From positions 1 to 54,880 of the IMG/VR virus record IMGVR_UViG_3300032323_001970: a stretch of 54,880 bases of DNA. The stretch is one strand, 5' to 3'. How positions within the stretch are numbered: the first letter of the stretch is position 1; every line of letters starts with the position of its first letter. Under the pieces are notes generated by a model. The model worked only from the letters and a program-made list of their open reading frames with translations. It was not told the origin of the DNA and made no database searches. Position numbers and translations under genes: made by a program. The stretch is from a virus (taxonomy: Duplodnaviria; Caudoviricetes). Below, piece after piece: positions 5,577-47,326 of this stretch.

Positions 5577-5800
5577 TCACGCAGCCCGTTATAATTGGTT
5601 TGCGCGATTGGGCCGACCAGATCGTTATGGACCTGTCCACCTATGGCGCACTCGCAAGGCTAGACGATGAAGACAAGTGGCAAGAATGGGCACTGCAATT
5701 CTGCGTTATCTCGGGATTGAGCCAGAAAAACATTCCAGATCCATTTGACTTTGCTGACTGGCGCAGTTGGGCGCAACGCTTCGTACAAATGGTGGACTAA
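5573..5800 (+). CDS. hypothetical Trp-rich protein
   Basis: 75 aa; GTGA and TAATG overlaps couple it to both neighbours. Confidence 0.65.
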   Translation: MITQPVIIGLRDWADQIVMDLSTYGALARLDDEDKWQEWALQFCVISGLSQKNIPDPFDFADWRSWAQRFVQMVD

Positions 5801-6090
5801 TGACCGATCAAGAATTTATTCAGCTACTGAATGACGTAGCTAAAAAAGCCAAGCCGTTTAACCGCGAGCTTAAACAAATTGACTCCATGGACATGGTCCT
5901 TAAGGAGACTGGCCTAGACAGCCTAGACATGCTGATGTGCACCGTCTATCTGTGCGAAATCTACAACGTAGAAGATGAAAAAAGCAAGGAAATGCAGGGC
6001 GAGACCCCGCAAGACCTGTTTAATTTCTTGAAGGAATGGGGGCGCAGACAGCCCACTGACCTGGCCCAGGCCAAGGAGTGGTTTGTATGA
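5800..6090 (+). CDS. acyl carrier protein
   Basis: 96 aa acidic protein with GLDSLD phosphopantetheine attachment motif; next to a ketosynthase. Confidence 0.8.
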   Translation: MTDQEFIQLLNDVAKKAKPFNRELKQIDSMDMVLKETGLDSLDMLMCTVYLCEIYNVEDEKSKEMQGETPQDLFNFLKEWGRRQPTDLAQAKEWFV

Positions 6091-19173: not shown

Positions 19174-20160
19174 ATGGCTCACGAAGTTGAAACGATGGCT
19201 TACGCCAATGAGACCCCTTGGCATGGCCTTGGCACCCCCGTCGCTGACAACCTGACCCCCGCCCAGATGCTTGATGCAGCTGGCCTCAACTGGAAAGTTC
19301 AAAAGAAGGCTCTGGTCGTTGACGACCTTGACCACGTCCTGACCAGCCACTACGCCCTGGTTCGCGACACGGACAGCAAGATCCTGGGCGTCTGCGGCAG
19401 CGAATACACGCCTACGCAAAACAGCGACGTCTTCGAGTTCTTCGAAAAGTTCTGCAAGGCCGGCGACATGAAGATGGAAACCGCCGGTTCCCTTTGCGAA
19501 GGCAAGCGCGTTTGGGGCCTTGCCAAGATCAACGGCGGCTTCATGCTGGGCGGCAAAGACGAAGTCGAGGGCTACATCCTCCTTGACAACCCCCACATCT
19601 GGGGCCGCAGCCTGCAGATCCTGTTCACCCCGATCCGCGTGGTTTGCAACAACACGCTGACGGCCGCTCTTCGGAACAATACGAACAAGGAAAACACTTT
19701 CCGCATGTCGCACGATCGCGCGTTTGACGACGAGATCAAGCAAACGGCAGCAGAAAAAGTCGGCCTTGCCATGAAGTCGCTAGACGTCTTCAAGCAGCAG
19801 GCCGAGTTCCTGTCCAAGAAGAAGGCCACGGACCAAAAGGTCATGGAGTTCTTCAGCAACTTGGTCAATCCCACCCAGTACCAAGCCGCTCTGGTCGATT
19901 CAGAAGCCGGCGAAGTCAACCGCGCAGATCTTGGCCGCACGGTCAACCGCCTGCTCGACATCGTGCACACCCAACCAGGAGCTGATCTGAAGACTTCAGC
20001 CGGAACCTGGTGGGGAGCATTCAACGCCGTGACGTACTACTACGACCACGTCGCCGGAACTGATCAGGACAAGCGTCTGACAAGCGCATGGTTTGGTTCA
20101 GCCGCCACCCGTAAGCGCCAAGCACTTGACCTCGCCGTCGAGTTCGCCGAAGCAGCCTAA
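19174..20160 (+). CDS. DUF932 / TIGR03299-like phage protein
   Basis: MAHEVETMAY..ETPWHGLG, METAGSL..GKRVW, FTPIRVVCNNTL, GTWWGAFNAVT. Confidence 0.85.
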   Translation: MAHEVETMAYANETPWHGLGTPVADNLTPAQMLDAAGLNWKVQKKALVVDDLDHVLTSHYALVRDTDSKILGVCGSEYTPTQNSDVFEFFEKFCKAGDMKMETAGSLCEGKRVWGLAKINGGFMLGGKDEVEGYILLDNPHIWGRSLQILFTPIRVVCNNTLTAALRNNTNKENTFRMSHDRAFDDEIKQTAAEKVGLAMKSLDVFKQQAEFLSKKKATDQKVMEFFSNLVNPTQYQAALVDSEAGEVNRADLGRTVNRLLDIVHTQPGADLKTSAGTWWGAFNAVTYYYDHVAGTDQDKRLTSAWFGSAATRKRQALDLAVEFAEAA

Positions 20161-20202: not shown

Positions 20203-21060
20203 ATGATGGCAAACGCCAGAGGAAAGACCATTGACAACACGCACCTGAGCATTGATCAGGCTGAAGAACGCGGCTTCATTCACCGCGACTACATCGCCCA
20301 CTGCCTTCGCTGGACGCACGTGGCTAAGTGGATGGGCAACCCCAAGAACCGCAAGGACTGCAACCTGCTCGACATCGGCTGCGGCAAAGATGTGCCGCTG
20401 GCCAAGATGCTGATGACCAGCCGCATGGCTTCCGATGGCCTGAACTACATCGGCATTGACTACAACAAGCTCGAAATGCCGAAGGCCTTCGAGAATACCA
20501 AGTTCAAGCCGACCCTGATTGGCAACGTGGCTTTTCCAGATTGCACGCTGCCCGTTGAGAAGTTCAATGTCATCACCTGTTTTGAGGTGCTTGAGCATGT
20601 CGAGCCATTGCATGCCTACAAGATGCTTGAAGGCATCAAGGCGCGCCTTGCAGACGATGGTGTGGCTTTCATCAGTACTCCTGTCTATGACGAAAAGGTT
20701 GGCGCAGCAGACAACCACGTCAACGAGATGAGCTACGGCGCCATGCAGCTGATGCTGCACAAGGTCGGCTTGGAAGTTGACGCCCACTACGGCACTTTTG
20801 CCTCAATCAAAGACTACAAGCAGATGGTCGAAAAGGAAGACATCGATGGAGTGTTCAATCGCCTGCGTGATTACTACGACAGCAACTACTTGGCAACTAT
20901 CTTTGCCCCGCTTTACCCGAGCCGCTCACGCAACGTGCTCTGGCGAGTCAAATTGCCGACTAGTCAAGAGATGTTTGCGCCCGCAAAGTTTGTCGACATC
21001 CCCCACCCGCTCTCAAGCAGCGACGCCTGGCAGCCACTCTTTGACTACCTTGGAGAGTGA
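20203..21060 (+). CDS. class I SAM-dependent methyltransferase
   Basis: LLDIGCG motif I, YIGID, ITCFEVLEHV, FISTP. Confidence 0.85.
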   Translation: MMANARGKTIDNTHLSIDQAEERGFIHRDYIAHCLRWTHVAKWMGNPKNRKDCNLLDIGCGKDVPLAKMLMTSRMASDGLNYIGIDYNKLEMPKAFENTKFKPTLIGNVAFPDCTLPVEKFNVITCFEVLEHVEPLHAYKMLEGIKARLADDGVAFISTPVYDEKVGAADNHVNEMSYGAMQLMLHKVGLEVDAHYGTFASIKDYKQMVEKEDIDGVFNRLRDYYDSNYLATIFAPLYPSRSRNVLWRVKLPTSQEMFAPAKFVDIPHPLSSSDAWQPLFDYLGE

Positions 21061-21452
21061 GCATGGACTTGTTCAACATGGTGGCGGCCTTCCACGAGAA
21101 GTTTGGCCTGGAGCCTACCAACCAGCCTGACTTTCCGATCAAGGAGATCGCCGAGCTCAAGAACGTCCACATGCAAGAAGAGCTCGATGAGATTAAGAAG
21201 GCGCTTGCCGAGGGAAACCTTGAGGAGTATTTCGACGGCCTGATTGATCTGATCTATGTTGCTCTTGGTGCTGCCTATTTAGGCGGCCTTCCATTCAACG
21301 AAGGCTTCAAGCGGGTCCACGAAGCCAACATGAAAAAAGTGCGCGCCTTGAGGCAAGAAGATAGCAAACGAGGTTCGACCTATGATATAGTGAAGCCTCC
21401 AGGATTCGTGGCTCCAACGCTTACGGACCTGATCAGAAAGGAGAAAGAATGA
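21057..21452 (+). CDS. MazG-like / PRA-PH-family NTP pyrophosphohydrolase
   Basis: FHEKFG, QEELDE, DGLIDLIYVALG, VHEANMKK, KPPGF; start may be ATG 21063. Confidence 0.85.
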   Translation: MSMDLFNMVAAFHEKFGLEPTNQPDFPIKEIAELKNVHMQEELDEIKKALAEGNLEEYFDGLIDLIYVALGAAYLGGLPFNEGFKRVHEANMKKVRALRQEDSKRGSTYDIVKPPGFVAPTLTDLIRKEKE

Positions 21453-22441
21453 AAGGACTCATAGTCATTGATGGCTGCGATGGCACAGGCAAGACGACGC
21501 TTGCTCAAGCTATTTGCGACCGCCTTGGTGGTGTCTACATTCACAACACATACCGCTGGCCCAGCAAGATGCCGCTGTACCATACAGCCGCCTTGCATCG
21601 CGCGTTGAAGCTTGCACGCACGCAGCTTGTGGTCATCGATCGTTTGTGGATGAGTGAAGCCATCTACGCTGACGTGTATCGTGGTGGCAGCCCCTGGCCT
21701 CACATGGGTCGCATGATGGATCGCATGATCCGCAAGGTCGGTGGCGTCTACATCTTGGCTCAATCACCAGCCAATCATGCTGAGAAGTTTGAGCAGCTCA
21801 AGAGCGAGCGCGAAGAGATGTATGACAACGTCGATGAAGTGCGCAAGCGCTTTGACGTGTTGTTTGAAGGCGGTTACGCTGGCCACGATCGTGACTACGT
21901 TCAGCAGCTGTCTGTCTTTGGAATGCGCCGTCGAGATGATGTGCTGCCGTATCGCTTTGACGTAGAGGGTCGTGATCTGGATGTCTACATCGGCATGGTG
22001 TACTCTGTCCTTGAATCACGTTGGCAGAAGCAGTACGAGCCGGCCCTGCATCTGCACACGCAAAACTTTGCAGGCCACCTGCATGAAGCCAACATCATCT
22101 TCGTAGGTGACAAGGCCAATAGCAAGATGCGTGCAATCAGCTGGCCTTTCTATGACTTTGGCCATTGCAGCGAATTCTTTGCTGATGTGCTGCATGAGCT
22201 GTTGTTTGATGAGACTAAGGCTGTCTACATCAACGCGCACGATGGCAATGGTCCGTTGTACGTCAACGACTGTTTGCGTGCTAAGCCTTACATGAAGGTT
22301 GTTTGCCTTGGCAATGACGCTTACAACACCATGACTCAGTTTACGCGTCGTATTTACAAAGTCATGCACCCATCATTTGCAAAGCGCTTCAACAAGCGCA
22401 ATGAGTTCAAGCAAGAACTTCAGGAGATTCTCAATGGTTAA
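21449..22441 (+). CDS. dNMP (thymidylate-like) kinase fused to UDG-like domain
   Basis: N-terminal IVIDGCDGTGKTT P-loop and IDRLWMSE..Y; C-terminal IIFVGDKAN, VVCLGNDA, HPSF. Confidence 0.75.
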   Translation: MKGLIVIDGCDGTGKTTLAQAICDRLGGVYIHNTYRWPSKMPLYHTAALHRALKLARTQLVVIDRLWMSEAIYADVYRGGSPWPHMGRMMDRMIRKVGGVYILAQSPANHAEKFEQLKSEREEMYDNVDEVRKRFDVLFEGGYAGHDRDYVQQLSVFGMRRRDDVLPYRFDVEGRDLDVYIGMVYSVLESRWQKQYEPALHLHTQNFAGHLHEANIIFVGDKANSKMRAISWPFYDFGHCSEFFADVLHELLFDETKAVYINAHDGNGPLYVNDCLRAKPYMKVVCLGNDAYNTMTQFTRRIYKVMHPSFAKRFNKRNEFKQELQEILNG

Positions 22442-23228
22442 CACTACCAACATGAACTGGCAAGGCCTGCTTGACGTCATTAGCCAGCATGGTCAGTTGA
22501 CGAGCCCAAGAGGCAAGAAGACAAAAGAGCTGCTTGGTTTTAAGTCGATGATCGACATGAACCAGCCTGTCATCACTATCAAGGAGCGCAATCTTGGCTA
22601 CAAGTTCATGGCAGCTGAAGCAGCTTGGATCATGTCAGGTGATAACCGCGTCAGCACCATCGCCCCTTTTAGTAAGGCGATCAGCAACTTCTCTGACGAC
22701 GGCATTCTTTTCTTTGGAGCCTATGGTCCACGCATTCGCGACCAGCTGGGCCACGTGGTGCAGTCCTTACTTGCAGATCAAGATTCACGTCAGGCGGTCA
22801 TCACCATCTGGCGTCCAAACCCTCGAGCTTCTAAAGACATCCCTTGCACCATCAGTTGCCAGTTTGTCATTCGCAATGACCTGATCCATTGCTTCATGAA
22901 CATGCGTTCGTCTGATGCTTGGCTTGGTGTGCCGTATGACTGGTTCAACTTCAGCATGCTGTCGGCGGGTGTTGCCTTGTTGCTGCGTCAGAAGGGCCTG
23001 AACGTCAAACTTGGAGCCTTGCATTTTTATGCTGCAAGCCAGCACCTCTATGAGGACAACTGGCACAAGGTCGATGCGTGTTTGACAGGCGAGATTCTTG
23101 GCGACTATGCCCCCATCAATCTTGACTACTTCAACGACTACGACCACCTTGTCAATCATCTTTGGACGTTGGCTCATGGTCATGTGCACAACGGATTTTT
23201 GAAAGAAGCTTCATCATGGAAAGGCTAA
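22434..23228 (+). CDS. thymidylate synthase superfamily enzyme, probable dCMP (hydroxy)methylase
   Basis: SRQAVITIW, DIPC catalytic Cys, MRSSDAWLGVPYD (Asp at the E. coli Asn177-equivalent site), SQHLY. Confidence 0.8.
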   Translation: MVNTTNMNWQGLLDVISQHGQLTSPRGKKTKELLGFKSMIDMNQPVITIKERNLGYKFMAAEAAWIMSGDNRVSTIAPFSKAISNFSDDGILFFGAYGPRIRDQLGHVVQSLLADQDSRQAVITIWRPNPRASKDIPCTISCQFVIRNDLIHCFMNMRSSDAWLGVPYDWFNFSMLSAGVALLLRQKGLNVKLGALHFYAASQHLYEDNWHKVDACLTGEILGDYAPINLDYFNDYDHLVNHLWTLAHGHVHNGFLKEASSWKG

Positions 23229-23722
23229 GCAAAGATGAATACTTTTCGGAATTGGCTCTACTCGTTGCTCGGCGAAGTACTTGCGCTCGGAGGAGTGTGG
23301 GCTGCGTTCTCGTATCTCATCGTGGGCATATTCTCGGTACTGGTTATAACGGGGTGCCTCGTGGTCATACTCACTGCACTGACGTTCGCTGTCCCGGTGC
23401 TGCTTTGCCTTCGGGGACTGGCCTGGATGTATGTGAAGCTATTCATGCGGAACAAAACGCGCTCCTCCAGTGTAAGGACGTTGAGCAAATAGAAACGGCC
23501 TACGTGACTGCTATGCCCTGCATGACTTGCACAAAGCTTTTGCTGAACACAAGCTGCAGGCGCATCGTGTACGTTGAGCCGTACCCTCATGACGCCGCAA
23601 AACAACTATGGACAAAACATGGACGCATCATCGTATCAACCGCCGAAGCACTTTCCAAACCTGCTGCTCGCGAAACGTATAGCTATCGATTGCGAGACTC
23701 GCGACCCGAACTTAATGACTAA
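23216..23722 (+). CDS. dCMP deaminase (ComEB-like)
   Basis: RSTC.RR.VG, TGYNG, HAEQNA, PCMTC. Confidence 0.9.
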   Translation: MERLSKDEYFSELALLVARRSTCARRSVGCVLVSHRGHILGTGYNGVPRGHTHCTDVRCPGAALPSGTGLDVCEAIHAEQNALLQCKDVEQIETAYVTAMPCMTCTKLLLNTSCRRIVYVEPYPHDAAKQLWTKHGRIIVSTAEALSKPAARETYSYRLRDSRPELND

Positions 23723-25481
23723 GGGACCGGGTGGCGTACGCAAGGATGGCTACATCGTTGGCTTTTCCGTTGCGACAGATGATGGCTTTGCCGAATACTA
23801 TCCGGTGCGTCATGCAGCTGGCGGGAATCTGAATCCTGACAACGCGTTTGCTTGGCTTCGCGACATGCTGAAGACAGACATTCCAAAGATCGGTGCCAAC
23901 CTGCCGTACGACCTCGAGTGGCTGCTGACAGAGGGCGTGAAGGTCGGAGGCCCTAAGTACGACGTACAAATCGCCGAACCTTTGCTGGATGAAGACCGCA
24001 TCACCTACAGGCTTGATGCCTTGGCAGAAGCTTATCTTGGCGAGCATAAGGACGAGACCGAGCTGATTGCTGCAGCAGTTCGCCGCGGTATCCATCCAAG
24101 CAAGGTCAAAGAAAGCCTCTGGCAGTTTCACGCAGGTGAAGTGGCGCCCTACGGACGCAAGGACGCAGACCTACCAATCCGCATCTTTGCCCAACAAGAG
24201 GTGTTGCTGCACGACGAGAAGTTGTGGGAAGTCTTCGACATCGAGACGCAGCTGGTTGACGTGCTGGTCGCCATGCGCCAAAAGGGGGTTCCTGTGGACC
24301 TTGATCGCGCCCACAAGGTCAAGACTCAACTACTTGATGAGCAAAGCCAGCTGATGGAGCGCCTGAAGAAGGTTGCTGAGCGGGATGTAGACATCTGGTC
24401 TGGTGATGATATACAGGCAGCCAGTGATGCACTGAAGCTGGATTACCCAAAGACTGAAAAGGGGAATGCTAGTTTTCCCAGTGAGTTTCTTGAAGCTAGT
24501 GAGCATGAGTTTTTCTCCTTGATTTCTAAGGTCCGGAAGCTCGACCGGGCCGGTGGAGTATTTATCGACAGCAAGATCATTCAGATGGAAAAAGATGGCA
24601 AGATTTATCCGACGTTCAGGCAGGTCAGAGACGACCGAGGAGGCACAAAGTCGGGGCGTTTTGCGTCGGCTAACCCGAACATGCAACAGGTACCAGCTCG
24701 AGATCCGGTGCTGGCGCCTCTTATCAGAAGCATCTTTGTACCCGAAGAAGGTTGCCAATGGGGTGTCTTCGACTACTCCCAACAGGAGCCTCGCGTCACG
24801 GTTCACTACAGCTATCTACGGGGCTTCCCTGGAGCTGAGACTGCGCGCAATCGGTATCTGGACGACCCTGATACTGACTACCATCAGCTGGTTGCAGACA
24901 TGGCTGGAATCAGTCGAAAAAATGCGAAGGTCTTGAATCTGGGTTTGGCCTACGGTATGGGGGCTGCTAAGGCAGCGACTCAACTGGGCTTGCCACCAGC
25001 AGAAGCCAAGCGTGTCTACGAGCAGTATCACGCCAACGTGCCATTCATCAAGGCACTCGGTGAGGAATGCACACGGATCGCAACCAACAGGGGCTATGTC
25101 AAGACGTTCTTGGGTCGCCGCCGCAGGTTCCAGTTGTTTGGGCCACCCAAGTACAGCCCTGGCCTGATTCCGTTGAAGAAAGATCTGGCTGAAGAAAAGT
25201 ATGGGCTCCCATTAAAGCGTTACTTCGTCCACAAGGCGATGAATGCGGTGATCCAGGGGTCATCGGCAGACATGATCAAGCTTGCGATGATCAATCTGTT
25301 CAAAAAAGGCGAAGTTCCTCATCTGACTATTCATGATGAATTGGACTTCAGTGTTCGTGACTTGGATCATGCGCGCATGATTCGACAGGAGATGTTGACA
25401 TGCGTGGACTTGGTAGTGCCATTAAAAGTCGATTGCGAGCTTGGGCCCAATTGGGGAGAAGCGGTGGAGGTGAAGCTATGA
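23619..25481 (+). CDS. polA: DNA polymerase family A with 3'-5' exonuclease
   Basis: IDCET exonuclease motif, SGRFAS.NPNMQQVP, DYSQQEPR, KVLNLGLAYGMG, IQGSSAD, TIHDEL. Confidence 0.95.
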   Translation: MDASSYQPPKHFPNLLLAKRIAIDCETRDPNLMTKGPGGVRKDGYIVGFSVATDDGFAEYYPVRHAAGGNLNPDNAFAWLRDMLKTDIPKIGANLPYDLEWLLTEGVKVGGPKYDVQIAEPLLDEDRITYRLDALAEAYLGEHKDETELIAAAVRRGIHPSKVKESLWQFHAGEVAPYGRKDADLPIRIFAQQEVLLHDEKLWEVFDIETQLVDVLVAMRQKGVPVDLDRAHKVKTQLLDEQSQLMERLKKVAERDVDIWSGDDIQAASDALKLDYPKTEKGNASFPSEFLEASEHEFFSLISKVRKLDRAGGVFIDSKIIQMEKDGKIYPTFRQVRDDRGGTKSGRFASANPNMQQVPARDPVLAPLIRSIFVPEEGCQWGVFDYSQQEPRVTVHYSYLRGFPGAETARNRYLDDPDTDYHQLVADMAGISRKNAKVLNLGLAYGMGAAKAATQLGLPPAEAKRVYEQYHANVPFIKALGEECTRIATNRGYVKTFLGRRRRFQLFGPPKYSPGLIPLKKDLAEEKYGLPLKRYFVHKAMNAVIQGSSADMIKLAMINLFKKGEVPHLTIHDELDFSVRDLDHARMIRQEMLTCVDLVVPLKVDCELGPNWGEAVEVKL

Positions 25482-25885
25482 AGGAGAGCCAGTTCTGGGC
25501 TCTGGTCAAAGGCAAGCTGCATGGCCACGTGGAGCGTGTAGAGAACGCCTTGACAAGGGGAACTCCTGACGTGAACATGTGTCATGAGGGCACCGAGTTC
25601 TGGCTTGAGCTGAAAGTGCTAGATGCCAAGGGCAAATGCGAGTTGCGGCCAGAACAATACCTGTGGCACCGTAGGCGCCAAGAAAGCGGCGGACGTGTGT
25701 TCGTACTAGCTCGCAACGAAAATGTCCTAAAAGTCCTCCAGGTTCAACGAGACATGGATCTTTATGAGATCTGGACTTGCAGCAAGCCTTTTGATTGGGA
25801 GAACATGAACAACTTGCTTTTTAACGTTCCGCCTTTTTGCACTGAATACGTTGTGCGTCATGCACAAGTTGGAGGAAAACAATGA
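25478..25885 (+). CDS. PD-(D/E)XK nuclease (VRR-NUC / resolvase-like)
   Basis: ERVEN...GTPDV...WLELK...LRPEQ..W. Confidence 0.75.
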   Translation: MKESQFWALVKGKLHGHVERVENALTRGTPDVNMCHEGTEFWLELKVLDAKGKCELRPEQYLWHRRRQESGGRVFVLARNENVLKVLQVQRDMDLYEIWTCSKPFDWENMNNLLFNVPPFCTEYVVRHAQVGGKQ

Positions 25886-26199
25886 CCGTTTATGTCGTAC
25901 AAGAATCGCCGAAGTTCAATCTGCTGCCTGCAGCCGATTACGGCGACCTGCAAACGCTGCTGCCACCAGGCCAAGTGATGATGGCAACAGCGCCAACAAT
26001 CCGTATCTTGCGTGACAAGCTGCGGAATTTTTCGGACAGCGATTACCTGTTGGCTATTGGTGACCCCATTGCCATCGGCATGTCCGTCGCAATTGCTGCT
26101 GGCTTCAATAGCGGCAAGATCAGGATGCTCAAGTGGGATCGCCAAGAGCATCGTTACTACGCCCTTGAGGCAGACCTTACAGGAGCAAGAAATGCTTGA
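25882..26199 (+). CDS. hypothetical protein
   Basis: 105 aa, ATGA overlap, GGAGG RBS. Confidence 0.7.
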   Translation: MTVYVVQESPKFNLLPAADYGDLQTLLPPGQVMMATAPTIRILRDKLRNFSDSDYLLAIGDPIAIGMSVAIAAGFNSGKIRMLKWDRQEHRYYALEADLTGARNA

Positions 26200-26740
26200 A
26201 CAGGAAATGTTGGCCGACAGTCAGATGCCATCTGACCAAGGCCTCGGCAAGATCAGTACGCTTGCAGAGCGCTACACAGATCTTGATGAAGAGATCACAG
26301 AAGTTGAAAAACGACTGAAGTCTCTGAAGGAACAGGCCCGGGAGATTGCTGAAAAGCAGTTGCCTGAAGCCATGGCAGAAATTGGTGTTGCAAAGTTTAC
26401 GCTTACAGACGGCAGCGAAGTGACCGTCAAACCGTACTACAGCGCCAAGATCAGTGACGAGAAACGTGACGAGTGCTTTACCTGGTTGCAAGACCATGGT
26501 CACGAAGCGCTGATTAAAGACGAAGTCGTCCTGACATTCAATCGCGGTGAACACGACAAGGCAGAAGAATTCAAAGCCCGGCTGGAAGAGCAGGGACTGG
26601 AATATTCTGGCAAGATGGGTGTTCATCCTCAGACTTTGACAGCATTCGTCAAAGAGCAAGTGGAAAGCGGAGCCGAATTTCCCCTTGAACTTTTCAACGT
26701 GTACATCGGCCAAATCGCCAAAGTCAAAAGGAGTAAGTGA
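26192..26740 (+). CDS. hypothetical replication-module protein
   Basis: 182 aa coiled coil plus WLQDHGH..LIK and VHPQTL.AFVKE; AGGAG RBS. Confidence 0.7.
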   Translation: MLEQEMLADSQMPSDQGLGKISTLAERYTDLDEEITEVEKRLKSLKEQAREIAEKQLPEAMAEIGVAKFTLTDGSEVTVKPYYSAKISDEKRDECFTWLQDHGHEALIKDEVVLTFNRGEHDKAEEFKARLEEQGLEYSGKMGVHPQTLTAFVKEQVESGAEFPLELFNVYIGQIAKVKRSK

Positions 26741-27510
26741 TGGTTAAGAAAACTGAAGTGGCTGTCGCACAGTCAACCGCCGTTGTGGCATTCGCAGACG
26801 ACATGATGGCAGACGCAGGTCTCGGTTTCGAGAACGTGTCCGCAAACGATGTCGCTATTCCGTACCTCAAGGTGTTGCAGGCCTTGTCGCCTGAACTTCG
26901 TGGAGTCACCAAGGTTGCTGGTGCTGAAGAGGGCCTGATCATCAACACCGTCACGGGTCAGTTGATGAAAGAGGCTCGCATCATCCCTTGCGCCTTTAAG
27001 AAGAGCTACGTTGAGTGGACTCCTCGTGAGGCCGGCGGCGGTTTGGTCAAGGAACACACGGATGAGCGCATCCTTGAAAAGACCAAGAAAAACGAACGCA
27101 ATCAAGACGTGCTGCCCAACGGCAACTTGATCGTCACGACTGCCTACCACTACGTGTTGGTGTTGGCCGAAGGCGGTTTTGAGCGCGCCCTGATTGCAAT
27201 GTCTTCGACGCAGCTGAAGAAGTCGCGCCGCTGGTTGGGCCAGATGATGAGCCTTCAAGTCAAGGTCGGCGACAAGTCGTTCACTCCGCCTCCCTTTAGC
27301 CATAGCTACCATGTGGGAACCGGCATGGAGACGAAAGACGCCAACAGCTGGTATGGCTGGCTGATCAACGATCCTAAGATGGTGCAAGACCGTGGCATCT
27401 ACGAGGCAGCTAAGAAGTTTGGCCAAGACGTAACTGCCGGCCTCGTTAAGGTCGCTGAGCCGCCTGCAGATGCTCCGACGGCGGCAGGAGAAGACGATGT
27501 CCCATATTAA
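26737..27510 (+). CDS. putative single-stranded DNA-binding protein
   Basis: Replication-module position; acidic/aromatic C-terminal tail EDDVPY. Confidence 0.6.
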   Translation: MMVKKTEVAVAQSTAVVAFADDMMADAGLGFENVSANDVAIPYLKVLQALSPELRGVTKVAGAEEGLIINTVTGQLMKEARIIPCAFKKSYVEWTPREAGGGLVKEHTDERILEKTKKNERNQDVLPNGNLIVTTAYHYVLVLAEGGFERALIAMSSTQLKKSRRWLGQMMSLQVKVGDKSFTPPPFSHSYHVGTGMETKDANSWYGWLINDPKMVQDRGIYEAAKKFGQDVTAGLVKVAEPPADAPTAAGEDDVPY

Positions 27511-27733
27511 AGACATCTTTCCGAGCCTTGGCATGGACCTTGGTAAGTCCGACGAACGGAATCCAAGCTCCACTAAAAAGGGCCCTGGACGCAAACACGC
27601 GCAAGGTGCGACAAAAGGTAAGTCCAAGGGATCTACCTACTTCAAGCGCTCTGCCGTGAATAGGGTCAAGGTCGCCCAGCAGACTGACAACGTGACGAAT
27701 ACTCCGTTGAAAGCTGCAACGCGCGGCGGTTAA
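27497..27733 (+). CDS. small basic hypothetical protein
   Basis: 78 aa K/R-rich ORF with AGGAG RBS; overlaps SSB end; followed by a hairpin. Confidence 0.5.
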   Translation: MSHIKDIFPSLGMDLGKSDERNPSSTKKGPGRKHAQGATKGKSKGSTYFKRSAVNRVKVAQQTDNVTNTPLKAATRGG

Positions 27734-27736
27734 GTT

Positions 27737-27757
27737 GGGGGCGGCTTCGGCCGCTCC
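27737..27757 (+). terminator. C(UUCG)G hairpin
   Basis: GGGGGCGGC-TTCG-GCCGCTCC. Confidence 0.45.
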
Positions 27758-27784
27758 TCCTATCAACAACAACGAGAAAGAATT

Positions 27785-29308
27785 ATGCTTGCACAAAGAT
27801 TCATGGCGCTATTTTCCGGGCACACAGGTGCTTACGGGACCTATGACATCGATGGCAAGAATACTGGCCTGAAGGTTCAGGGGACAGCAGTCACAAAACG
27901 AGCAGCAGTAACAGAGCAGCTCTGGGACGGACACCTAGCTGGAACAAAGGGAATCGGTATTGTGCCAATCAGAGAGGACAACACATGCCTCTTTGGTGCG
28001 ATTGACATTGATGAATACAAGAATTTTGACCTGAAAGATGCCGTTGACGCTTGCGCCAAGGCCAAGGCACCGGTTGCAGTCTGCCGCAGCAAGTCTGGCG
28101 GCGCCCACATCTACATGTTTTTCAGCGAGCCGATACCGGCTGCTGATGTCAAACGAAAGCTTGGTGAATTGGCCAGCGTGATCGGCCACCCGAGTTGCGA
28201 GATTTTCCCTAAGCAAGATCAAGTGTTGTCTGAACGCGGTGACGTCGGCAACTGGATCAACATGCCTTACTTCGAAGGCGACCAGACCAGTCGCTATGGG
28301 GTTGCTGAAAACGGCAGCCCGATGCAGATCGAAGATTTTCTTACCTTTGCCGAAGGGCTCAAGCTTACCAGAGCCAACTTCGTGCGCCTTAAGTTTGCAG
28401 AAGCCAAGAGCAAGAAGCGGGCATTCAAGGATGCACCTCCATGTATCGAGAAACTGGCTCAGACAGGCTTCCCAGAAGGCACCCGCAACAACGGCCTGTT
28501 TAATCTGTGTGTGCTGGCACGCAAGATGAAACCCGATGATTGGCAGCCGCTGGTCATGCAGATGAACATCGATGTCATGGACCCGCCGCTTCCTGAATCT
28601 GAAGCCATGGGCGTCATCCAGTCCATGCAGAACAGCGACTATCAATACACGTGCAGCAGGCCTCCGTTACGGCCTAACTGCAATGCCGGCATGTGCCGCA
28701 TGCGCAAGTATGGCGTGGGCCAGCAGCAAGGGGCTCCAAGGCTTTCATCACTGAGCAAATACAACACCGAACCGCCGATCTGGTTCCTTGACATGGACAA
28801 CGGCATGCGCTTGTCACTGTCTACTGAGGACTTGCAGAACCAGTCAGGTTTCCAGAAGCGCTGCATGGAGGCCATGAACTACATGCCTCCCAAGATGAAC
28901 CTGACGCAGTGGAATCAGATGATCCAGGCTCTTCTTGCAGACGTGGTCGTCATTGAGGCTCCTGAGGACGCAAGCCCCAAGGGCCAGTTTATCGACCTGC
29001 TGGAACGTTTCTGCACCGGCAAGGCGCAGGCCAAGCACCTTGATGAGATCTTGCTGGGTAAACCGTTCCACGACCGTGACGAAAACCGCCACTTGTTTAG
29101 GCTGGCAGACTTCATCAATTTCCTCGACAAGCAGAAGTTCAAGGAGTTCAAGCTGAATCAGATCAGCTCAGCCATTCGTGACTACGGCGGCGAGACTCAC
29201 ACCTACAAGCTGAATGGCAAGCGGGCAACGGTCTGGTCTGTTCCTGCATTCTCATTCCAAGACAAAGGCCATCAGACTCCGGACTTTAACAGTGGAAGCC
29301 TCATCTAA
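27785..29308 (+). CDS. archaeo-eukaryotic-type primase with PriCT-like domain
   Basis: AIDID, RSKSGGAHIY, NWINMPY, PPC...EGTRNNGLF. Confidence 0.8.
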   Translation: MLAQRFMALFSGHTGAYGTYDIDGKNTGLKVQGTAVTKRAAVTEQLWDGHLAGTKGIGIVPIREDNTCLFGAIDIDEYKNFDLKDAVDACAKAKAPVAVCRSKSGGAHIYMFFSEPIPAADVKRKLGELASVIGHPSCEIFPKQDQVLSERGDVGNWINMPYFEGDQTSRYGVAENGSPMQIEDFLTFAEGLKLTRANFVRLKFAEAKSKKRAFKDAPPCIEKLAQTGFPEGTRNNGLFNLCVLARKMKPDDWQPLVMQMNIDVMDPPLPESEAMGVIQSMQNSDYQYTCSRPPLRPNCNAGMCRMRKYGVGQQQGAPRLSSLSKYNTEPPIWFLDMDNGMRLSLSTEDLQNQSGFQKRCMEAMNYMPPKMNLTQWNQMIQALLADVVVIEAPEDASPKGQFIDLLERFCTGKAQAKHLDEILLGKPFHDRDENRHLFRLADFINFLDKQKFKEFKLNQISSAIRDYGGETHTYKLNGKRATVWSVPAFSFQDKGHQTPDFNSGSLI

Positions 29309-30800
29309 ACCCAAGATCATCCTGGGACCGCCCGGAACCGGCAAGACGACTACGTTGATGAACATCATCGAGTCGCTGCTGGAGAAGGGCGTTCGGCCTG
29401 AAGACATTGGCTTCATTAGCTTCACCAAGAAAGCTACAAATGAGGCTAGGGATAAGGCTCGTTCCCGGTTTGGTTTTGATGCAGATAGGCTTCCATTCTT
29501 CAGGACGATCCACAGCCTTGCGTTCAGGCAGCTGGGACTGAGTAGGCAGCAGGTCATGCAGCACAACCACTACCAAGAACTTTGCGATGAGCTGGGGGTT
29601 GAGATCACAGGGCGCCAAACTGGCGAAGACGGCACGTTGGTTGGTATGGCACAGGGTGACAAGCTGCGTTTTGTCGAAGGCATGGCAAGGATCCGGTGTG
29701 TGCCACTCAAGCAGCAGTGGGAAGAGTTAAATGACGACGATCTTGGCTGGTTTGAGCTGGAGCAGTTTGCAAAGGCTCTCAAGGAATACAAGGACAACTC
29801 TGGCCTGATCGACTACACTGACATGCTTGAGTTGATGCGGTCAGAAGGCTTCGTACCTAAATTAAAGGCTCTGCTGGTTGATGAGGCACAAGACCTATCA
29901 AAGCTGCAATGGTCCGTTGTTGAACGAATGATGGAGAAGGCAGATGAGACCTATATTGCTGGAGACGACGATCAGGCAATCTTTAGATGGGCTGGAGCAG
30001 ACGTTGATCACTTCATTGGCCTCGACGGGGACGTGCGTGTACTCGATCAGTCTTACCGGATCCCCTCCGTTGTTCACGATTTGTCCTTTGACATTATCAA
30101 AGCTGTATCTCGACGACGAGAAAAGCAATTCAAGCCAGCAGCCCATGAAGGATCTATCACCTACCACAACGACATCGAACACGTAGACATGGGCCAAGGA
30201 ACATGGCTCCTGCTTGCTAGGAATGTCTATATGCTCAGGGAAATGGTTGAGTTATGCCATCGTGAGGGCTACGCATACGAGTGTCAAGGAATGAGCCCTC
30301 GTAAGTCTGAGGCACTGCTGGCCATCAGGAGCTGGGAGAAGCTTCGCAAGGGCGACTTCATCCAAGCAGATCAACTGAAGCTGGTCTATGCTCACATGTC
30401 AAAGCGGATGGTCGATCACGGTCATCTGTCCTTGAAGACGTTGACAGAAGACATGGTCAACATGGACCTGCTGCAGCAGAAGTACGGGCTGCAGACCAAG
30501 GCCATCTGGCACACGGCTCTTGACCGCATCAGCGACGAGGAAAAGGAATACTTCCTTGCAGCCTTAAGACAAGGCGAATCGTTGTCAGGAGATCCACGGA
30601 TTACCATCAGCACGATCCACGGATCTAAAGGTGGTGAGGCTGACAACGTATTGCTGGTCACTGACATCAGTCCCAAGACCTACAACAGCTACCAAGAGAA
30701 TCAAGACGATGAGGTTCGCGTGTTTTACGTGGCAGCAACGCGGACCAAGAAGAACTTGCACATCATCACGCCGCGCACACAAAGGTACTTTGACTTATGA
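29292..30800 (+). CDS. UvrD/Rep-family SF1 helicase
   Basis: GPPGTGKTT, SFTKKA, RTIHS, VDEAQD, GDDDQAI, STIHGSKGGEAD, YVAATR; GTG start is approximate. Confidence 0.9.
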   Translation: MEASSKPKIILGPPGTGKTTTLMNIIESLLEKGVRPEDIGFISFTKKATNEARDKARSRFGFDADRLPFFRTIHSLAFRQLGLSRQQVMQHNHYQELCDELGVEITGRQTGEDGTLVGMAQGDKLRFVEGMARIRCVPLKQQWEELNDDDLGWFELEQFAKALKEYKDNSGLIDYTDMLELMRSEGFVPKLKALLVDEAQDLSKLQWSVVERMMEKADETYIAGDDDQAIFRWAGADVDHFIGLDGDVRVLDQSYRIPSVVHDLSFDIIKAVSRRREKQFKPAAHEGSITYHNDIEHVDMGQGTWLLLARNVYMLREMVELCHREGYAYECQGMSPRKSEALLAIRSWEKLRKGDFIQADQLKLVYAHMSKRMVDHGHLSLKTLTEDMVNMDLLQQKYGLQTKAIWHTALDRISDEEKEYFLAALRQGESLSGDPRITISTIHGSKGGEADNVLLVTDISPKTYNSYQENQDDEVRVFYVAATRTKKNLHIITPRTQRYFDL

Positions 30801-31432
30801 GCTTCCTAGTCGCAAACATCCCTCCCATAAAGTGCTTTGTTCGCAAAGAGTTTCTTTACAACCACGAATCCGGACATGGTGAGCTTGAGCCATGCGTGTG
30901 GATGACGGCCAAGGCCATCAAGGGCCAGGCATTCAGGATTGAATCCATGCTGACGAACTACGGAGCCTTGTATGACAAGCTCCCTATCAGCGCATACGTG
31001 TGGAAGCCGGTCGAAGAGCCGCTACCGCTTGACTTCCTGCAGATCTGGGATTGCTTGTCGTATGACATGGCAGTCATCGAGAAGTCAAACCTGCGGGGAC
31101 TCAAGGTCAAGTTCTTTGGCAAGGACAAGCAGTTCCATTTCGGCAACTACCTGTTCACCATTGACTTTGCAGCACCTGACACCAACCGCATCGACACCAG
31201 CTTCAGCGAAGGGGTTCAAGAGCATAAGAGCTACAACTTCATCCAGCTCGACAACGGCCAGTTCGCTTGCCAGCCCAACAACCGCTGCCTGTGGTACGAC
31301 GTGTCATTGGTCCCTGCAACCCTGAAGACCCCTGACTTCAAGATCCCGACCCAGGTCTACAGCGTCGAGAACCACGCCAAGTGGTCTGCCAAGGATGAGT
31401 GGTTCTACAGCTTCGAGGAGCTCAACAAGTGA
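30797..31432 (+). CDS. hypothetical phage protein
   Basis: 211 aa ORF coupled by ATGA and GTGA overlaps. Confidence 0.7.
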   Translation: MSFLVANIPPIKCFVRKEFLYNHESGHGELEPCVWMTAKAIKGQAFRIESMLTNYGALYDKLPISAYVWKPVEEPLPLDFLQIWDCLSYDMAVIEKSNLRGLKVKFFGKDKQFHFGNYLFTIDFAAPDTNRIDTSFSEGVQEHKSYNFIQLDNGQFACQPNNRCLWYDVSLVPATLKTPDFKIPTQVYSVENHAKWSAKDEWFYSFEELNK

Positions 31433-37371: not shown

Positions 37372-37698
37372 ATGCCATTCCAAAAAGGTGTGAAGCCGGA
37401 AGGCTCTGGGCGCAAAAAAGGTAGCCAGAACAAGCGCAACATTCAACGGCAAGAGATCTTTGACCGGATCGTCGAGAAGCATGGTGACCCACTCGAGGCA
37501 CTGGCTGAGATGGCCTTTGACCCGAACCACGACCTGCTGGTCCGCAAAGACTGCCTCAAGGAGCTGGTGCAGTATGGCCACGCCAAGAAGAAGTCGGTCG
37601 AGATTACCGGACCTGATGGCGGTCCCATCGAGGCGCGGCTCGAGCTGGTCGGCCAGATCACCGACCTCATCGGCAAGCTGAACGCTGGCGGCAAATGA
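37372..37698 (+). CDS. terS: terminase small subunit
   Basis: GSGRKKGSQNK N-terminus, EITGPDGGPI; overlaps terL start. Confidence 0.75.
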   Translation: MPFQKGVKPEGSGRKKGSQNKRNIQRQEIFDRIVEKHGDPLEALAEMAFDPNHDLLVRKDCLKELVQYGHAKKKSVEITGPDGGPIEARLELVGQITDLIGKLNAGGK

Positions 37699-39170: not shown

Positions 39171-39182
39171 CCGGAGCACTGA

Positions 39183-41711: not shown

Positions 41712-41720
41712 GGAGCAATC

Positions 41721-47323: not shown

Positions 47324-47326
47324 GCC

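What the first reader, a model, noticed from the sequence alone, without database searches (positions are those of the whole stretch)
20203..23722. Five-gene nucleotide-modification cassette coupled to PolA
Seen: SAM methyltransferase, MazG-like NTP-PPase, dNMP kinase-UDG-like fusion, TS homologue and dCMP deaminase all overlap one another and run straight into polA. Established: a TS-family (hydroxy)methylase, a dNMP kinase and a pyrophosphatase that removes the canonical dNTP form the standard logic of base-substituted phage genomes (T4 hmC, SPO1 hmU). Inference: this phage replaces a pyrimidine. The small-molecule-type methyltransferase, which lacks DNA-MTase catalytic motifs such as PC or DPPY, may add a further step giving an undescribed base (e.g. 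an O-methylated hydroxymethyl-pyrimidine). No glycosyltransferase is recognisable.
Basis: partly seen in the sequence, partly recalled or inferred. Interest (0 to 1): 0.8.

Follow-up and report, generated by a model that had tools for sequence, protein, structure and literature searches.

The report
Phage hydroxymethylcytosine cassette with extra methyltransferase
This phage carries a tightly packed gene set that most likely replaces cytosine in its DNA with 5-hydroxymethylcytosine, plus a phage-only methyltransferase that always travels with that gene set and may turn the base into one not yet described.

Summary
The five overlapping genes are real and lead into polA.

- **TS homologue.** It is not a dTMP synthase. 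It has Cys146, Asp177, Asp143, Asp169, Ser167 and Arg126 (E. coli numbering), which is the signature of T4 dCMP hydroxymethylase. It lacks the 5-hydroxy-dCMP synthase mark D169N and the Xp12-like features.
- **Supporting genes.** A MazG pyrophosphatase, a thymidylate-kinase-like kinase and a dCMP deaminase complete T4-style logic for replacing C with 5hmC.
- **Kinase C-terminus.** It is a UDG-superfamily fold.
- **SAM methyltransferase.** It belongs to a virus-only family. In two locus scans I found 75 distinct neighbouring TS sequences. All have Asp177 and 71 have the full hydroxymethylase signature. Gene order varies while the neighbourhood is kept. Some family members are fused to a C5-cytosine DNA methylase domain.
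- **Cultured relative.** Stenotrophomonas phage AXL3 has the cassette, and its DNA resists 35 of 37 restriction enzymes. Only A/T-only sites cut, and the base is unidentified.

My best reading is 5hmC that is further methylated, most simply to 5-methoxymethylcytosine. This is unproven. First readers of this scan noted the same cassette in several other genomes.

The parts
20203..21060 (+). Class I SAM methyltransferase (285 aa) of a phage-specific family. It is the candidate enzyme for methylating the hmC moiety.
   Evidence: Methyltransf_23 at 6.8e-15, above the cut-off. Motif I is LDIGCG. The model has pLDDT 87, and the best folds are ChlM (Z 18.9) and CmoM 4htf (Z 18.2). There are 1373 homologues at E<=1e-5. 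The ESM Atlas clusters are 95-100% viral.
21057..21452 (+). MazG-like all-alpha NTP pyrophosphatase (131 aa). Its inferred role is a dCTPase that removes canonical dCTP.
   Evidence: PRA-PH at 5.7e-13. phrog_671, nucleotide pyrophosphohydrolase, at 1.8e-25. Present beside the MTase in 73 of 80 loci. Substrate not tested.
21449..22033 (+). Thymidylate-kinase-like dNMP kinase domain (about residues 1-195 of the 330-aa fusion).
   Evidence: The P-loop GCDGTGKTT and the DRxWxSExxY block are conserved. The fold matches TMP kinases at Z 12-13.3. The best PDB sequence hit is prophage YorR 2axp at 7.5e-9.
22034..22441 (+). UDG-superfamily domain (about residues 196-330) fused to the kinase.
   Evidence: Fold matches: UdgX 6ail at Z 11.9, T. 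maritima UDG 1l9g at Z 11.5, and the UDG domain of phiLo PolA 9qhs at Z 10.4. Conserved VG(D/E)xxN(P/S), WPF and HPSxxKRF blocks. The fusion is kept in 46 of 80 loci.
22434..23228 (+). TS-family enzyme (264 aa), predicted to be a dCMP hydroxymethylase.
   Evidence: PF00303 at 2.7e-20. The best solved relative is the CMP hydroxymethylase MilA at 1.9e-22. The residue signature R126/D143/C146/S167/D169/D177 equals that of T4 gp42.
22938..22940 (+). Asp codon at the ThyA Asn177 position, the determinant of cytosine specificity.
   Evidence: GVPYD aligns to LPFN of E. coli ThyA. The role of the residue is taken from PMC13326640 section 24 and PMC8670742 passages.
22836..22838 (+). Asp codon at the ThyA Leu143 position, a correlate of hydroxymethyl rather than methyl products.
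   Evidence: KDIPC aligns to ALAPC. The correlation is stated in PMC13326640 sections 24 and 28.
23216..23722 (+). dCMP deaminase (168 aa).
   Evidence: PF00383 at 5.2e-22 and phrog_174 at 3.6e-38. The HAE and PCxxC motifs are visible in the translation.
23589..25481 (+). Family A DNA polymerase with a 3'-5' exonuclease domain. It would incorporate the modified dNTP.
   Evidence: DNA_pol_A at 4.4e-57 and DNA_pol_A_exo1 at 4.2e-07. It follows the deaminase in 40 of 80 loci.

Best explanation
The cassette is a T4-style pre-replicative pathway that replaces dC with a 5-substituted dC in phage DNA.

Inferred steps:
1. The MazG-like pyrophosphatase hydrolyses dCTP to dCMP, which depletes the canonical precursor.
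2. The TS homologue uses methylene-tetrahydrofolate to convert dCMP to 5-hydroxymethyl-dCMP.
3. The thymidylate-kinase-like domain phosphorylates the modified dNMP, and host NDP kinase completes the triphosphate.
4. The phage family A polymerase incorporates it.
5. The dCMP deaminase drains the remaining dCMP towards dUMP and dTMP.
6. The UDG-like domain fused to the kinase probably removes uracil from phage DNA. Its role is the least certain.

On top of this, the phage-specific SAM methyltransferase methylates the hydroxymethylcytosine moiety. The simplest chemistry is O-methylation of the 5-CH2OH group, which would give 5-methoxymethylcytosine. It could act on the nucleotide or on newly made DNA, and the stage is undetermined. 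The product would block restriction enzymes and probably also hmC-dependent nucleases, as glucosylation does in T4.

What is shown here: gene identities, catalytic signatures, folds and co-occurrence. Every enzymatic step is inferred.

My odds:
- C is replaced by 5hmC or a derivative: about 0.85.
- The methyltransferase further modifies that base: about 0.5.
- The product is specifically the O-methyl ether: about 0.35.
For: **(1) TS signature.** The window enzyme reads R126, D143, C146, S167, D169, D177, identical to T4 gp42. E. coli ThyA has L143/N177. The SP8 dUMP hydroxymethylase has D143/N177. The Xp12 5mC enzyme has N143/D177 plus a ThyA-like C-terminal tail that the window enzyme lacks. 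The meaning of positions 177, 143 and 169 comes from PMC13326640 sections 24 and 28. The meaning of positions 167 and 126 comes from PMC5175136 passages.

**(2) No dTMP-related genes.** The 98%-complete record has no ThyX and no DHFR. A hydroxymethylase yields THF and needs no DHFR. Xp12 has DHFR beside its TS.

**(3) Co-occurrence.**
- Scan 1: 240 pattern hits, 188 confirmed, 80 kept. A TS homologue is present in 66 of 80. The other 14 lie at contig ends, except L042.
- Scan 2, seeded with a distant member: 283 hits, 202 confirmed, 80 kept, 71 new locus ids. A TS homologue is present in 62 of 71. For L092 and L093 it lies elsewhere in the same record.
- Among 75 distinct neighbouring TS cores, all have C146, D169 and D177, and 71 have D143. 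They span TS clades that are 25-90% identical to the window enzyme.
- Gene orders differ: MT-MazG-kinase-TS-deaminase, TS-MazG-MT, TS-MT-deaminase and MT-MazG-TS-deaminase.

**(4) Rosetta-stone fusion.** Family members are fused to a C5-cytosine DNA methylase domain (P0121; L091, 843 aa) or lie next to one (L090, L102, L123).

**(5) Precedent.** The module of TS(Asp177) + PRA-PH + dCMP deaminase co-occurs with a carbamoyltransferase that transfers a group to the hydroxyl of 5hmC. That enzyme works on ssDNA and on 5hmdCTP (PMC8670742 passages).

**(6) Cultured relative.** AXL3 carries the homologous five genes in the same order. Its DNA resisted 35 of 37 restriction enzymes. Only TasI and Tru1I cut, and both have A/T-only sites (PMC7504290 passages).

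**(7) No rival decorating enzyme.** None is recognisable in the window.
Against: - No assay or base composition exists for this phage. The AXL3 data do not identify the base and would also fit a G modification. The AXL3 proteins are only 33% (MTase) and 51% (TS) identical to the window's.
- The Asp143 rule is a correlation from a few characterised enzymes. 4 of 75 neighbouring TS sequences lack it: 2 have Asn, 1 has Tyr, and 1 has Asp143 but Ala167.
- Phages with the same TS type lack the methyltransferase, for example Pelagibacter phage HTVC200P. The methyltransferase is therefore an add-on and not needed for substitution.
- The methyltransferase fold is generic, and the profile search against solved structures finds only the Rossmann core. 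Nothing points to a particular acceptor atom.
- In L044 the methyltransferase lies beside UDP-glucose dehydrogenase, an epimerase and a cytidylyltransferase, so a sugar acceptor is possible there.
- Phage early genes cluster by timing, so neighbourhood alone can mislead.
- The association with C5-methylase-like domains is unexplained if C5 is already occupied.
Confidence: 0.5

Rival explanations
1. The phage DNA contains plain 5-hydroxymethylcytosine, like T4gt. The methyltransferase has another target, such as an RNA, a protein, a host metabolite or a signalling nucleotide, and sits in the cassette only because early genes are co-expressed.
For: Every part of the hmC pathway is explained without the methyltransferase. 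HTVC200P has the same TS type without it. The methyltransferase fold is generic. The best PHROG name is 'tRNA methyltransferase' at 4.4e-09.
Against: The family is virus-only. It was found beside a cytosine-specific TS homologue in every locus with enough flank. That covers three divergent TS clades and four gene orders, with 75 of 75 distinct TS sequences carrying Asp177. Some members are fused to a cytosine-C5 DNA methylase domain. A general host-takeover enzyme should not track one nucleotide chemistry so closely.
Confidence: 0.25
2. The methyltransferase does modify the hmC base or nucleotide, but at another atom (for example N4) or on a further intermediate. The final base would not be the O-methyl ether.
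For: The co-occurrence evidence is the same as for the best explanation. Nothing in the sequence or fold fixes the acceptor atom. Solved structures with similar folds include N-, O-, C- and S-methyltransferases.
Against: Exocyclic-amine methyltransferases of nucleic acids normally carry a (D/N/S)PP(Y/F/W) motif (recalled knowledge), and none is present in the translation. The one characterised enzyme that decorates the same module attacks the hydroxyl. The family tracks hydroxymethylase-type TS (71 of 75 with Asp143). That fits a need for the hydroxyl.
Confidence: 0.12
3. The TS homologue is a dCMP methylase and the DNA carries 5-methylcytosine, as in Xanthomonas phage Xp12.
For: Asp177 is shared with the Xp12 enzyme. 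AXL3 infects a relative of Xanthomonas, and 5mC DNA resists about 90% of type II enzymes (PMC7653180 abstract and passages).
Against: The window enzyme has Asp143, whereas Xp12 has Asn143. It lacks the ThyA-like C-terminal tail that Xp12 keeps. No DHFR is present in the window or in any of the fetched loci, whereas Xp12 has DHFR next to its TS. KpnI cuts Xp12 DNA completely but did not cut AXL3 DNA.
Confidence: 0.07
4. The DNA is canonical, and the cassette only boosts dTTP supply (dCTP to dCMP to dUMP to dTMP to dTDP). AXL3 and PW916 are annotated this way in print.
For: The published annotations of AXL3 and PW916 describe a thymidylate pathway. Every gene has a relative with a housekeeping function.
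Against: Asp at position 177 makes the enzyme cytosine-specific. AXL3 also carries a separate ThyX, so it does not need this enzyme for dTMP. AXL3 DNA resists every tested enzyme whose site contains G/C.
Confidence: 0.03
5. The genes make a free pyrimidine antimetabolite, as in bacimethrin or mildiomycin biosynthesis (hydroxymethylase, N-glycosidase, methyltransferase, kinase), and not a DNA base.
For: The best solved relative of the TS homologue is MilA. The cassette holds a hydroxymethylase, a glycosylase-fold domain, a methyltransferase and a kinase. The parallel with the bacimethrin genes is recalled from memory. BcmA is mentioned in PMC5175136.
Against: The window enzyme has Ser167 and Arg126, the deoxyribose determinants, and not the Ala and Lys of MilA and BcmA. 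The kinase is thymidylate-kinase-like and not ThiD-like. The genes sit between replication genes and run into polA. AXL3 virion DNA is itself modified.
Confidence: 0.02

Closest known systems
Phage T4 hydroxymethylcytosine pathway (gp56 dCTPase, gp42 dCMP hydroxymethylase, gp1 dNMP kinase, cd dCMP deaminase, then glucosyltransferases)
   Same: The logic is the same and so are four of the activities. The TS homologue shares the gp42 signature D143/C146/D169/D177.
   Different: The dCTPase is MazG-like and not dUTPase-like. The kinase is thymidylate-kinase-like and fused to a UDG-fold domain. There are no glucosyltransferases; a SAM methyltransferase takes the place of a decorating enzyme. The TS is only distantly related to gp42 by sequence, and the window clade is nearer to MilA.
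5hmC carbamoyltransferase system found by MetaGPA (5-carbamoyloxymethylcytosine; PMC8670742)
   Same: It has the same core module of TS(Asp177) + PRA-PH/MazG + dCMP deaminase on C-modified viral contigs. One extra group-transfer enzyme acts on the 5-CH2OH hydroxyl.
   Different: The extra enzyme here is a class I SAM methyltransferase and not a carbamoyltransferase. Its product is unknown. No carbamoyltransferase family was found in the window ORFs I scanned.
Stenotrophomonas phage AXL3 (MT536174) gp27-gp31 and Pseudoxanthomonas phage PW916
   Same: They carry the same five genes in the same order. AXL3 DNA is experimentally resistant at all tested G/C-containing sites.
   Different: They are siphoviruses with 33% (MTase) and 51% (TS) identity to the window proteins. 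The cassette is not adjacent to PolA. AXL3 also has ThyX. The genes are described in print as a thymidylate pathway, and the base is not identified.
Xanthomonas phage Xp12 5-methylcytosine pathway
   Same: A cytosine-specific TS homologue (Asp177) with a dCMP deaminase.
   Different: Xp12 has Asn143, a ThyA-like C-terminal tail and an adjacent DHFR. Xp12 was not among the 5 phage records that matched the window methyltransferase. Its annotation lists no methyltransferase near its TS, and I did not scan it for a MazG. The window differs on each point that I tested.
5-hydroxy-dCMP synthases of RB69 and DLP3 (PMC13326640)
   Same: TS homologues with Asp177 and an acidic residue at position 143 that feed a dNMP kinase.
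   Different: Their diagnostic residue is Asn at position 169. The window enzyme and all 75 neighbouring TS sequences keep Asp169.
UDG domains fused to phage family A polymerases (SP-15, YerA41, phiLo; PMC13697223)
   Same: A UDG-fold domain is attached to a replication or nucleotide enzyme in phages with modified pyrimidines. The phiLo domain is a fold match at Z 10.4.
   Different: Here the domain is fused to the dNMP kinase and not to the polymerase, and the modified base is C and not T. Activity is untested. I saw only the abstract and outline of that paper.

Membership tests
Thymidylate synthase superfamily, dCMP hydroxymethylase type (T4 gp42-like) | Member of PF00303 with the catalytic Cys146 | tested here: met
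   PF00303 at 73.1 bits against a cut-off of 24.3. Cys aligned to C146.
Thymidylate synthase superfamily, dCMP hydroxymethylase type (T4 gp42-like) | Asp in place of Asn177 (cytosine specificity) | tested here: met
   GVPYD against LPFN. Rule taken.
Thymidylate synthase superfamily, dCMP hydroxymethylase type (T4 gp42-like) | Acidic residue in place of Leu143 (hydroxymethyl rather than methyl product) | tested here: met
   Asp in KDIPC, as in T4 gp42, the SP8 enzyme and MilA. The rule is a correlation stated in PMC13326640.
Thymidylate synthase superfamily, dCMP hydroxymethylase type (T4 gp42-like) | Ser167 and Arg126 (deoxyribose rather than ribose substrate) | tested here: met
   Both are present. 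Rule taken from PMC5175136 passages.
Thymidylate synthase superfamily, dCMP hydroxymethylase type (T4 gp42-like) | Converts dCMP and methylene-THF to 5hm-dCMP | not testable with these tools
   Needs an enzyme assay.
5-hydroxy-dCMP synthase (RB69 gp48 type) | Asn in place of Asp169 | tested here: not met
   Asp is retained in RSSDAW. Rule taken.
dCMP methylase (Xp12 type) | Correlates seen in the single sequenced example: non-acidic residue 143, a ThyA-like C-terminal tail, DHFR encoded | tested here: not met
   Asp143, no such tail and no DHFR in the record. These are correlates from one phage and not formal definitions.
Class I SAM-dependent methyltransferase | Rossmann-type SAM-binding fold with motif I | tested here: met
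   Methyltransf_23 at 55.6 bits against 27. LDIGCG is invariant in 42 sequences. Fold Z 15-19 to many class I enzymes.
DNA methyltransferases (C5, N6/N4) | PC and ENV motifs (C5), or the (D/N/S)PP(Y/F/W) motif with a target-recognition domain (N6/N4) | tested here: inconclusive
   No such motif is in the translation. No DNA_methylase or N6_N4 Pfam hit at E<=0.01. None among the 50 listed fold matches, which does not exclude the family. The motif definitions are recalled.
MazG / all-alpha NTP pyrophosphatase | Member of PF01503 (PRA-PH) | tested here: met
   49.5 bits against 21.3. phrog_671 at 1.8e-25.
MazG / all-alpha NTP pyrophosphatase | dCTP as the preferred substrate | not testable with these tools
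   Inferred from context only.
Thymidylate kinase-like dNMP kinase | P-loop NMP-kinase fold with the DR(Y/H)-type motif | tested here: met
   The Pfam score of 26.7 is just under the cut-off of 27. The fold matches TMP kinases at Z 12-13.3 over about 160 residues. The P-loop and DRxWxSE are invariant or nearly so in 22 sequences.
Uracil-DNA glycosylase superfamily | UDG alpha/beta fold with motif A and the motif B His | tested here: met
   Fold Z 11.9 (6ail), 11.5 (1l9g) and 11.1 (2d3y) for residues 195-330. VG(D/E) and HP(S) are conserved. The Pfam UDG score of 20.3 is below the cut-off of 24.3.
Uracil-DNA glycosylase superfamily | Glycosylase activity and its base specificity; the Fe-S cluster of family 4 | not tested
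   Activity needs an assay. I did not map the four family 4 cysteines onto the model.
dCMP deaminase | Member of PF00383 with the zinc motifs HAE and PCxxC | tested here: met
   78.1 bits against 25. Both motifs are in the translation.
5hmC carbamoyltransferase system | Carbamoyltransferase (PF02543/PF16861) beside the TS module | tested here: not met
   No such family among the 61 window ORFs scanned. The system works alike but this is not a member.

The most novel reading that the evidence does not exclude
A large, environmentally widespread group of phages, including the cultured Stenotrophomonas phage AXL3, replaces all cytosine with 5-methoxymethylcytosine. This base has not been described in any natural DNA. 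It would be made by a new virus-only family of hmC-specific O-methyltransferases, which work with a T4-like hmC pathway and with UDG-fold and, in some phages, C5-methylase-like helper domains.
Probability: 0.35. Interest if true: 0.85.

Novelty: new variant of a known kind. Interest (0 to 1): 0.72.

Why it matters
- **A new natural DNA base.** If the methyltransferase acts on hmC, it would add a new natural DNA base and a new enzyme class, an hmC-directed methyltransferase, to the phage anti-restriction repertoire.
- **A cheap alternative to glycosylation.** The modification would cost SAM rather than a nucleotide sugar. It may hide hmC from nucleases that depend on the modification.
- **The family is not rare.** There are 1373 protein clusters at E<=1e-5 and about 200 confirmed viral contigs per scan. 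Their architectures include T7-like and T4-like types.
- **Published annotations would need correcting.** The same genes are called a thymidylate pathway in AXL3 and PW916.
- **A practical use.** An enzyme that selectively methylates 5hmC would interest people who map 5hmC.
- **Directly testable.** AXL3 is in culture, and its DNA is already known to carry an unidentified G/C modification.

Tried and rejected
**DNA similarity.** A megablast of the cassette against 50,697 phage records found nothing. Only protein-level searches were informative.

**Methyltransferase acceptor.** None of these searches told me what the enzyme methylates:
- NCBIfam gave only a weak UbiG match (40.6 bits against a cut-off of 102.95).
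- The profile search against PDB sequences found only the Rossmann core of PKMT, UbiG and Hen1.
- Foldseek and VIA-align found generic class I enzymes.
- The ESM Atlas gave only viral clusters with automatic names.

**5-hydroxycytosine plus O-methylation (5-methoxycytosine).** I considered this after reading PMC13326640. I rejected it because Asp169 is kept in the window and in all 75 neighbouring TS sequences.

**Cytosine-excising role for the UDG-like domain.** I considered it but have no evidence for it, and I did not map the base-recognition residues onto the model.

**Kinase fusion against PDB sequences.** The single-sequence search found nothing at E<=1. The profile search found only YorR and P-loop matches, and nothing for the UDG part.

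**P0121 in viral contigs.** The scan found no relative. A profile led by its methyltransferase domain did.

**Literature.**
- No paper in the library holds 'methoxymethyl', 'phage' and 'hydroxymethylcytosine' together (0 papers).
- The spellings of methoxymethylcytosine tried gave 39 papers. The 25 listed are all unrelated chemistry; 14 were not listed.
- One search listed 15 of 54 papers, none containing 'methoxymethyl'.
- 'AXL3' with 'cytosine' gave one paper, on AXL1, which I did not read.
- Subscription journals and the newest papers are outside this library.
The MetaGPA domain tables and the AXL3 gel figure (S2) could bear on the claim, and I could not see them.

Full report
**What is there.** The window is a 54,880-bp IMG/VR virus record estimated 98% complete. 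Between a DUF932 gene (19174-20160) and polA lie five + strand genes whose ends overlap:
- a class I SAM methyltransferase, 20203-21060
- a MazG/PRA-PH pyrophosphatase, 21057-21452
- a 330-aa kinase fusion, 21449-22441
- a thymidylate-synthase (TS) homologue, ATG 22434-23228
- a dCMP deaminase, ATG 23216-23722

PolA follows (ATG 23589 or 23619, to 25481), then a VRR-NUC nuclease (25400-25885). The methyltransferase, MazG, TS, deaminase and PolA all score above the curated Pfam cut-offs. The kinase and UDG parts fall just below theirs.

**The TS homologue is a dCMP hydroxymethylase by every sequence criterion I could apply.** Its best solved relative is the CMP hydroxymethylase MilA at 1.9e-22, ahead of all true thymidylate synthases. 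I fetched reference enzymes of known product from annotated records and aligned them:
- E. coli ThyA
- T4 gp42
- the Xp12 TS homologue, which gives 5mC
- the SP8 TS homologue, which gives hmU

In E. coli numbering the window enzyme reads R126, D143, C146, S167, D169, D177, exactly like T4 gp42. ThyA has L143 and N177. SP8 has D143 and N177. Xp12 has N143 and D177 and keeps a ThyA-like C-terminal tail, which the window enzyme and gp42 lack.

The meaning of these positions comes from papers I read in part:
- Asn177 to Asp switches dUMP to dCMP. An acidic residue at 143 goes with hydroxymethyl products. Asn at 169 marks the newly described flavin-dependent 5-hydroxy-dCMP synthases (PMC13326640, sections 24 and 28).
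- Ser167 and Arg126 select deoxyribose, whereas MilA has Ala and Lys (PMC5175136, passages).

The record encodes neither ThyX nor DHFR. That fits an enzyme that releases THF and does not make dTMP.

**The remaining nucleotide genes complete T4 logic.** T4 uses a dCTPase (gp56), the hydroxymethylase (gp42), a dNMP kinase (gp1) and a dCMP deaminase (cd). T4 gp56 and gp42 appear; the rest of the T4 pathway I recall. Here the pyrophosphatase is MazG-like.

For the kinase fusion I built a model from 22 sequences, with pLDDT 91. The N-terminal domain matches thymidylate kinases (5x7j Z 13.3; 2v54 Z 12.8). It keeps the P-loop and a DRxWxSExxY block. It is therefore a mononucleotide kinase and not a DNA 5hmU kinase.

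Residues 195-330 match UdgX (6ail, Z 11.9, rmsd 2.6, 133 residues), T. maritima UDG (Z 11.5), T. thermophilus UDG 2d3y (Z 11.1) and the UDG domain of the phiLo polymerase (9qhs, Z 10.4). The fusion is conserved: KinC was found in 46 of 80 loci, and in the same ORF as the kinase wherever both were found. In other architectures a stand-alone UDG gene sits in the cassette (L091, L123, L090). Its role is open. Removing uracil from phage DNA, as shown for polymerase-fused UDGs in T-modified phages (PMC13697223, abstract only), is the simplest idea.

**The methyltransferase.** It is a small-molecule-type class I enzyme. Its model has pLDDT 87, and its best structural neighbours are ChlM, CmoM, MfnG, CmoA and UbiG. 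It is acidic, with pI 5.9. It carries strongly conserved family-specific blocks outside the Rossmann core.

It has 1373 homologues at E<=1e-5, many more than 50% identical. The ESM Atlas clusters are 95-100% viral. Only five GenBank phage records hold it: MW202510, MW202621, AXL3 (two records) and PW916. None of these searches names an acceptor.

- *Scan 1 of IMG/VR.* 240 pattern hits, 188 confirmed, best 80 kept. By tblastn, MazG is present in 73 of 80, TS in 63, deaminase in 59, kinase in 49 and PolA in 41. The full window order occurs in 40. By HMM, TS is present in 66 of 80. Of the 14 without, 13 are cut by a contig end within 1.5 kb on the relevant side. One, L042, ends 1.2 kb after its kinase.
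- *Scan 2, seeded with a distant family member.* 283 hits, 202 confirmed, 80 kept, 71 new locus ids, some from contigs already seen. TS is present by HMM in 62 of 71. For the two most divergent loci without it (L092, L093), TS lies elsewhere in the same terminally repeated record.
- *Pooled.* There are 75 distinct TS core sequences. All have C146, D169 and D177. 71 have the full R-D-C-S-D-D signature, two have Asn143, one has Tyr143 and one has Ala167.
- *Diversity.* These TS sequences fall in clades 25-90% identical to the window enzyme. They sit in different gene orders and virus types. These include the window type, TS-x-MazG-MT in T7-like contigs with DUF1599 (L061), and MT-MazG-TS-deaminase (L084). 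In a T4-like contig the order is cytidylyltransferase-TS-MT-deaminase-UDP-glucose dehydrogenase-epimerase-UvsX (L044).

The neighbourhood is kept while the order is shuffled. That is the strongest evidence that the methyltransferase belongs to the cytosine pathway.

**A domain fusion points the same way.** A search for longer relatives found P0121 (656 aa). It has an N-terminal C5-cytosine DNA methylase domain (PF00145, 4.5e-34) followed by a true member of this family, 35% identical over 233 residues with the family blocks kept. L091 encodes a similar 843-aa fusion. L090, L102 and L123 have a PF00145 gene directly beside the methyltransferase, each with a D177 TS in the locus. This links the family to cytosine C5 chemistry and hints at action on DNA. 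I cannot explain what a C5 methylase would do when C5 is already substituted.

**Experimental anchor.** AXL3 gp31-gp27 are the same five genes in the same order. Its purified DNA was cut by only 2 of 37 enzymes, TasI and Tru1I, whose sites hold only A and T. The authors concluded that G or C is modified and left the base unknown (PMC7504290, passages). KpnI, which cuts 5mC-containing Xp12 DNA completely (PMC7653180, passages), did not cut AXL3 DNA. AXL3 also has ThyX, so its TS homologue is not needed for dTMP. PW916 has no modification data.

**Closest precedent for the extra step.** The MetaGPA study found TS(Asp177), PRA-PH and dCMP deaminase co-occurring with a carbamoyltransferase on C-modified contigs. 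It showed that this enzyme transfers a carbamoyl group to the hydroxyl of 5hmC, on ssDNA and on 5hmdCTP (PMC8670742, passages). The window has the same core, with a SAM methyltransferase in the corresponding role and no other decorating enzyme. Pfam recognised no glycosyltransferase, carbamoyltransferase or dioxygenase in 61 ORFs. Methyl transfer to the same hydroxyl, giving 5-methoxymethylcytosine, is therefore the simplest proposal. I found no paper in the searchable library that links such a base to phages.

**What speaks against it.**
- Nothing here is biochemical.
- The Asp143 rule rests on few enzymes, and 4 of 75 neighbours depart from the full signature.
- Phages such as HTVC200P have the same TS type without the methyltransferase.
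- In L044 a sugar could be the acceptor.
- The methyltransferase fold says nothing about the acceptor atom.
- AXL3 is a distant relative.
- Early phage genes cluster for regulatory reasons.

**Verdict.** It is supported but unproven on the methyltransferase. My odds are 0.85 that C is replaced by 5hmC or a derivative, 0.5 that the methyltransferase modifies that base further, and 0.35 that the product is the O-methyl ether.

This is a new variant of a known kind of system. It is widespread and has a cultured representative, so one LC-MS run could decide it. First readers of this scan flagged the same cassette in at least six other genomes. None had been followed up.

Noticed in passing
window 5573-7208: An acyl-carrier-protein-sized ORF and a beta-ketoacyl synthase lie inside the virion or ejection-protein block. 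One member of the ORF batch that included 6078-7208 matched Ketoacyl-synt_C at 1.2e-16 and ketoacyl-synt at 4e-08.
   Followed up: partly
window 37372-54675 (one ORF of the batch): One ORF of the late region matches Cpn10/GroES at 1.9e-12. The same batch holds a large terminase and an F5/8 type C domain. The batch scan does not say which ORF carries each hit.
   Followed up: no
window 26198-29308: Pam3 gp33-like and gp34-like proteins (5.5e-35, 4.2e-62) and a 507-aa protein with an AEP-TOTE primase domain (6.5e-20) follow the cassette. UvrD-like and SNF2-like helicases lie at 29214-32865.
   Followed up: no
window 23589-23722: The PolA reading frame overlaps the end of the dCMP deaminase gene by about 100-130 nt. 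This is much more than the 4-16 nt overlaps within the cassette.
   Followed up: partly
L091:5153-7684; P0121; L090:6956-8793; L102:7795-8829; L123:52-1714: C5-cytosine DNA methylase-like domains are fused to, or lie directly beside, members of the methyltransferase family in loci that also hold a D177 TS homologue. L090 also carries ThyX and two paralogues of the methyltransferase.
   Followed up: partly
L044:1383-5609: In a T4-like contig the TS-MT-deaminase trio is flanked by a cytidylyltransferase-like gene, a UDP-glucose dehydrogenase and an NAD-dependent epimerase/dehydratase. This suggests a sugar-bearing hypermodification there.
   Followed up: no
L123:4213-4668: A dCTP deaminase-like (DCD/dUTPase-fold) gene stands where other loci have a dCMP deaminase, and no MazG was detected in this 5.7-kb locus. 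It lies next to a TS homologue with Tyr at position 143.
   Followed up: no
L161:539-2062 (-): In this record the TS domain occupies residues 226-444 of a 508-aa open frame. The roughly 225-residue N-terminal extension has no Pfam match.
   Followed up: no
window 19174-20160: A DUF932 gene (2.6e-45) directly precedes the methyltransferase. A homologue lies upstream of the methyltransferase in 39 of 80 related loci.
   Followed up: partly
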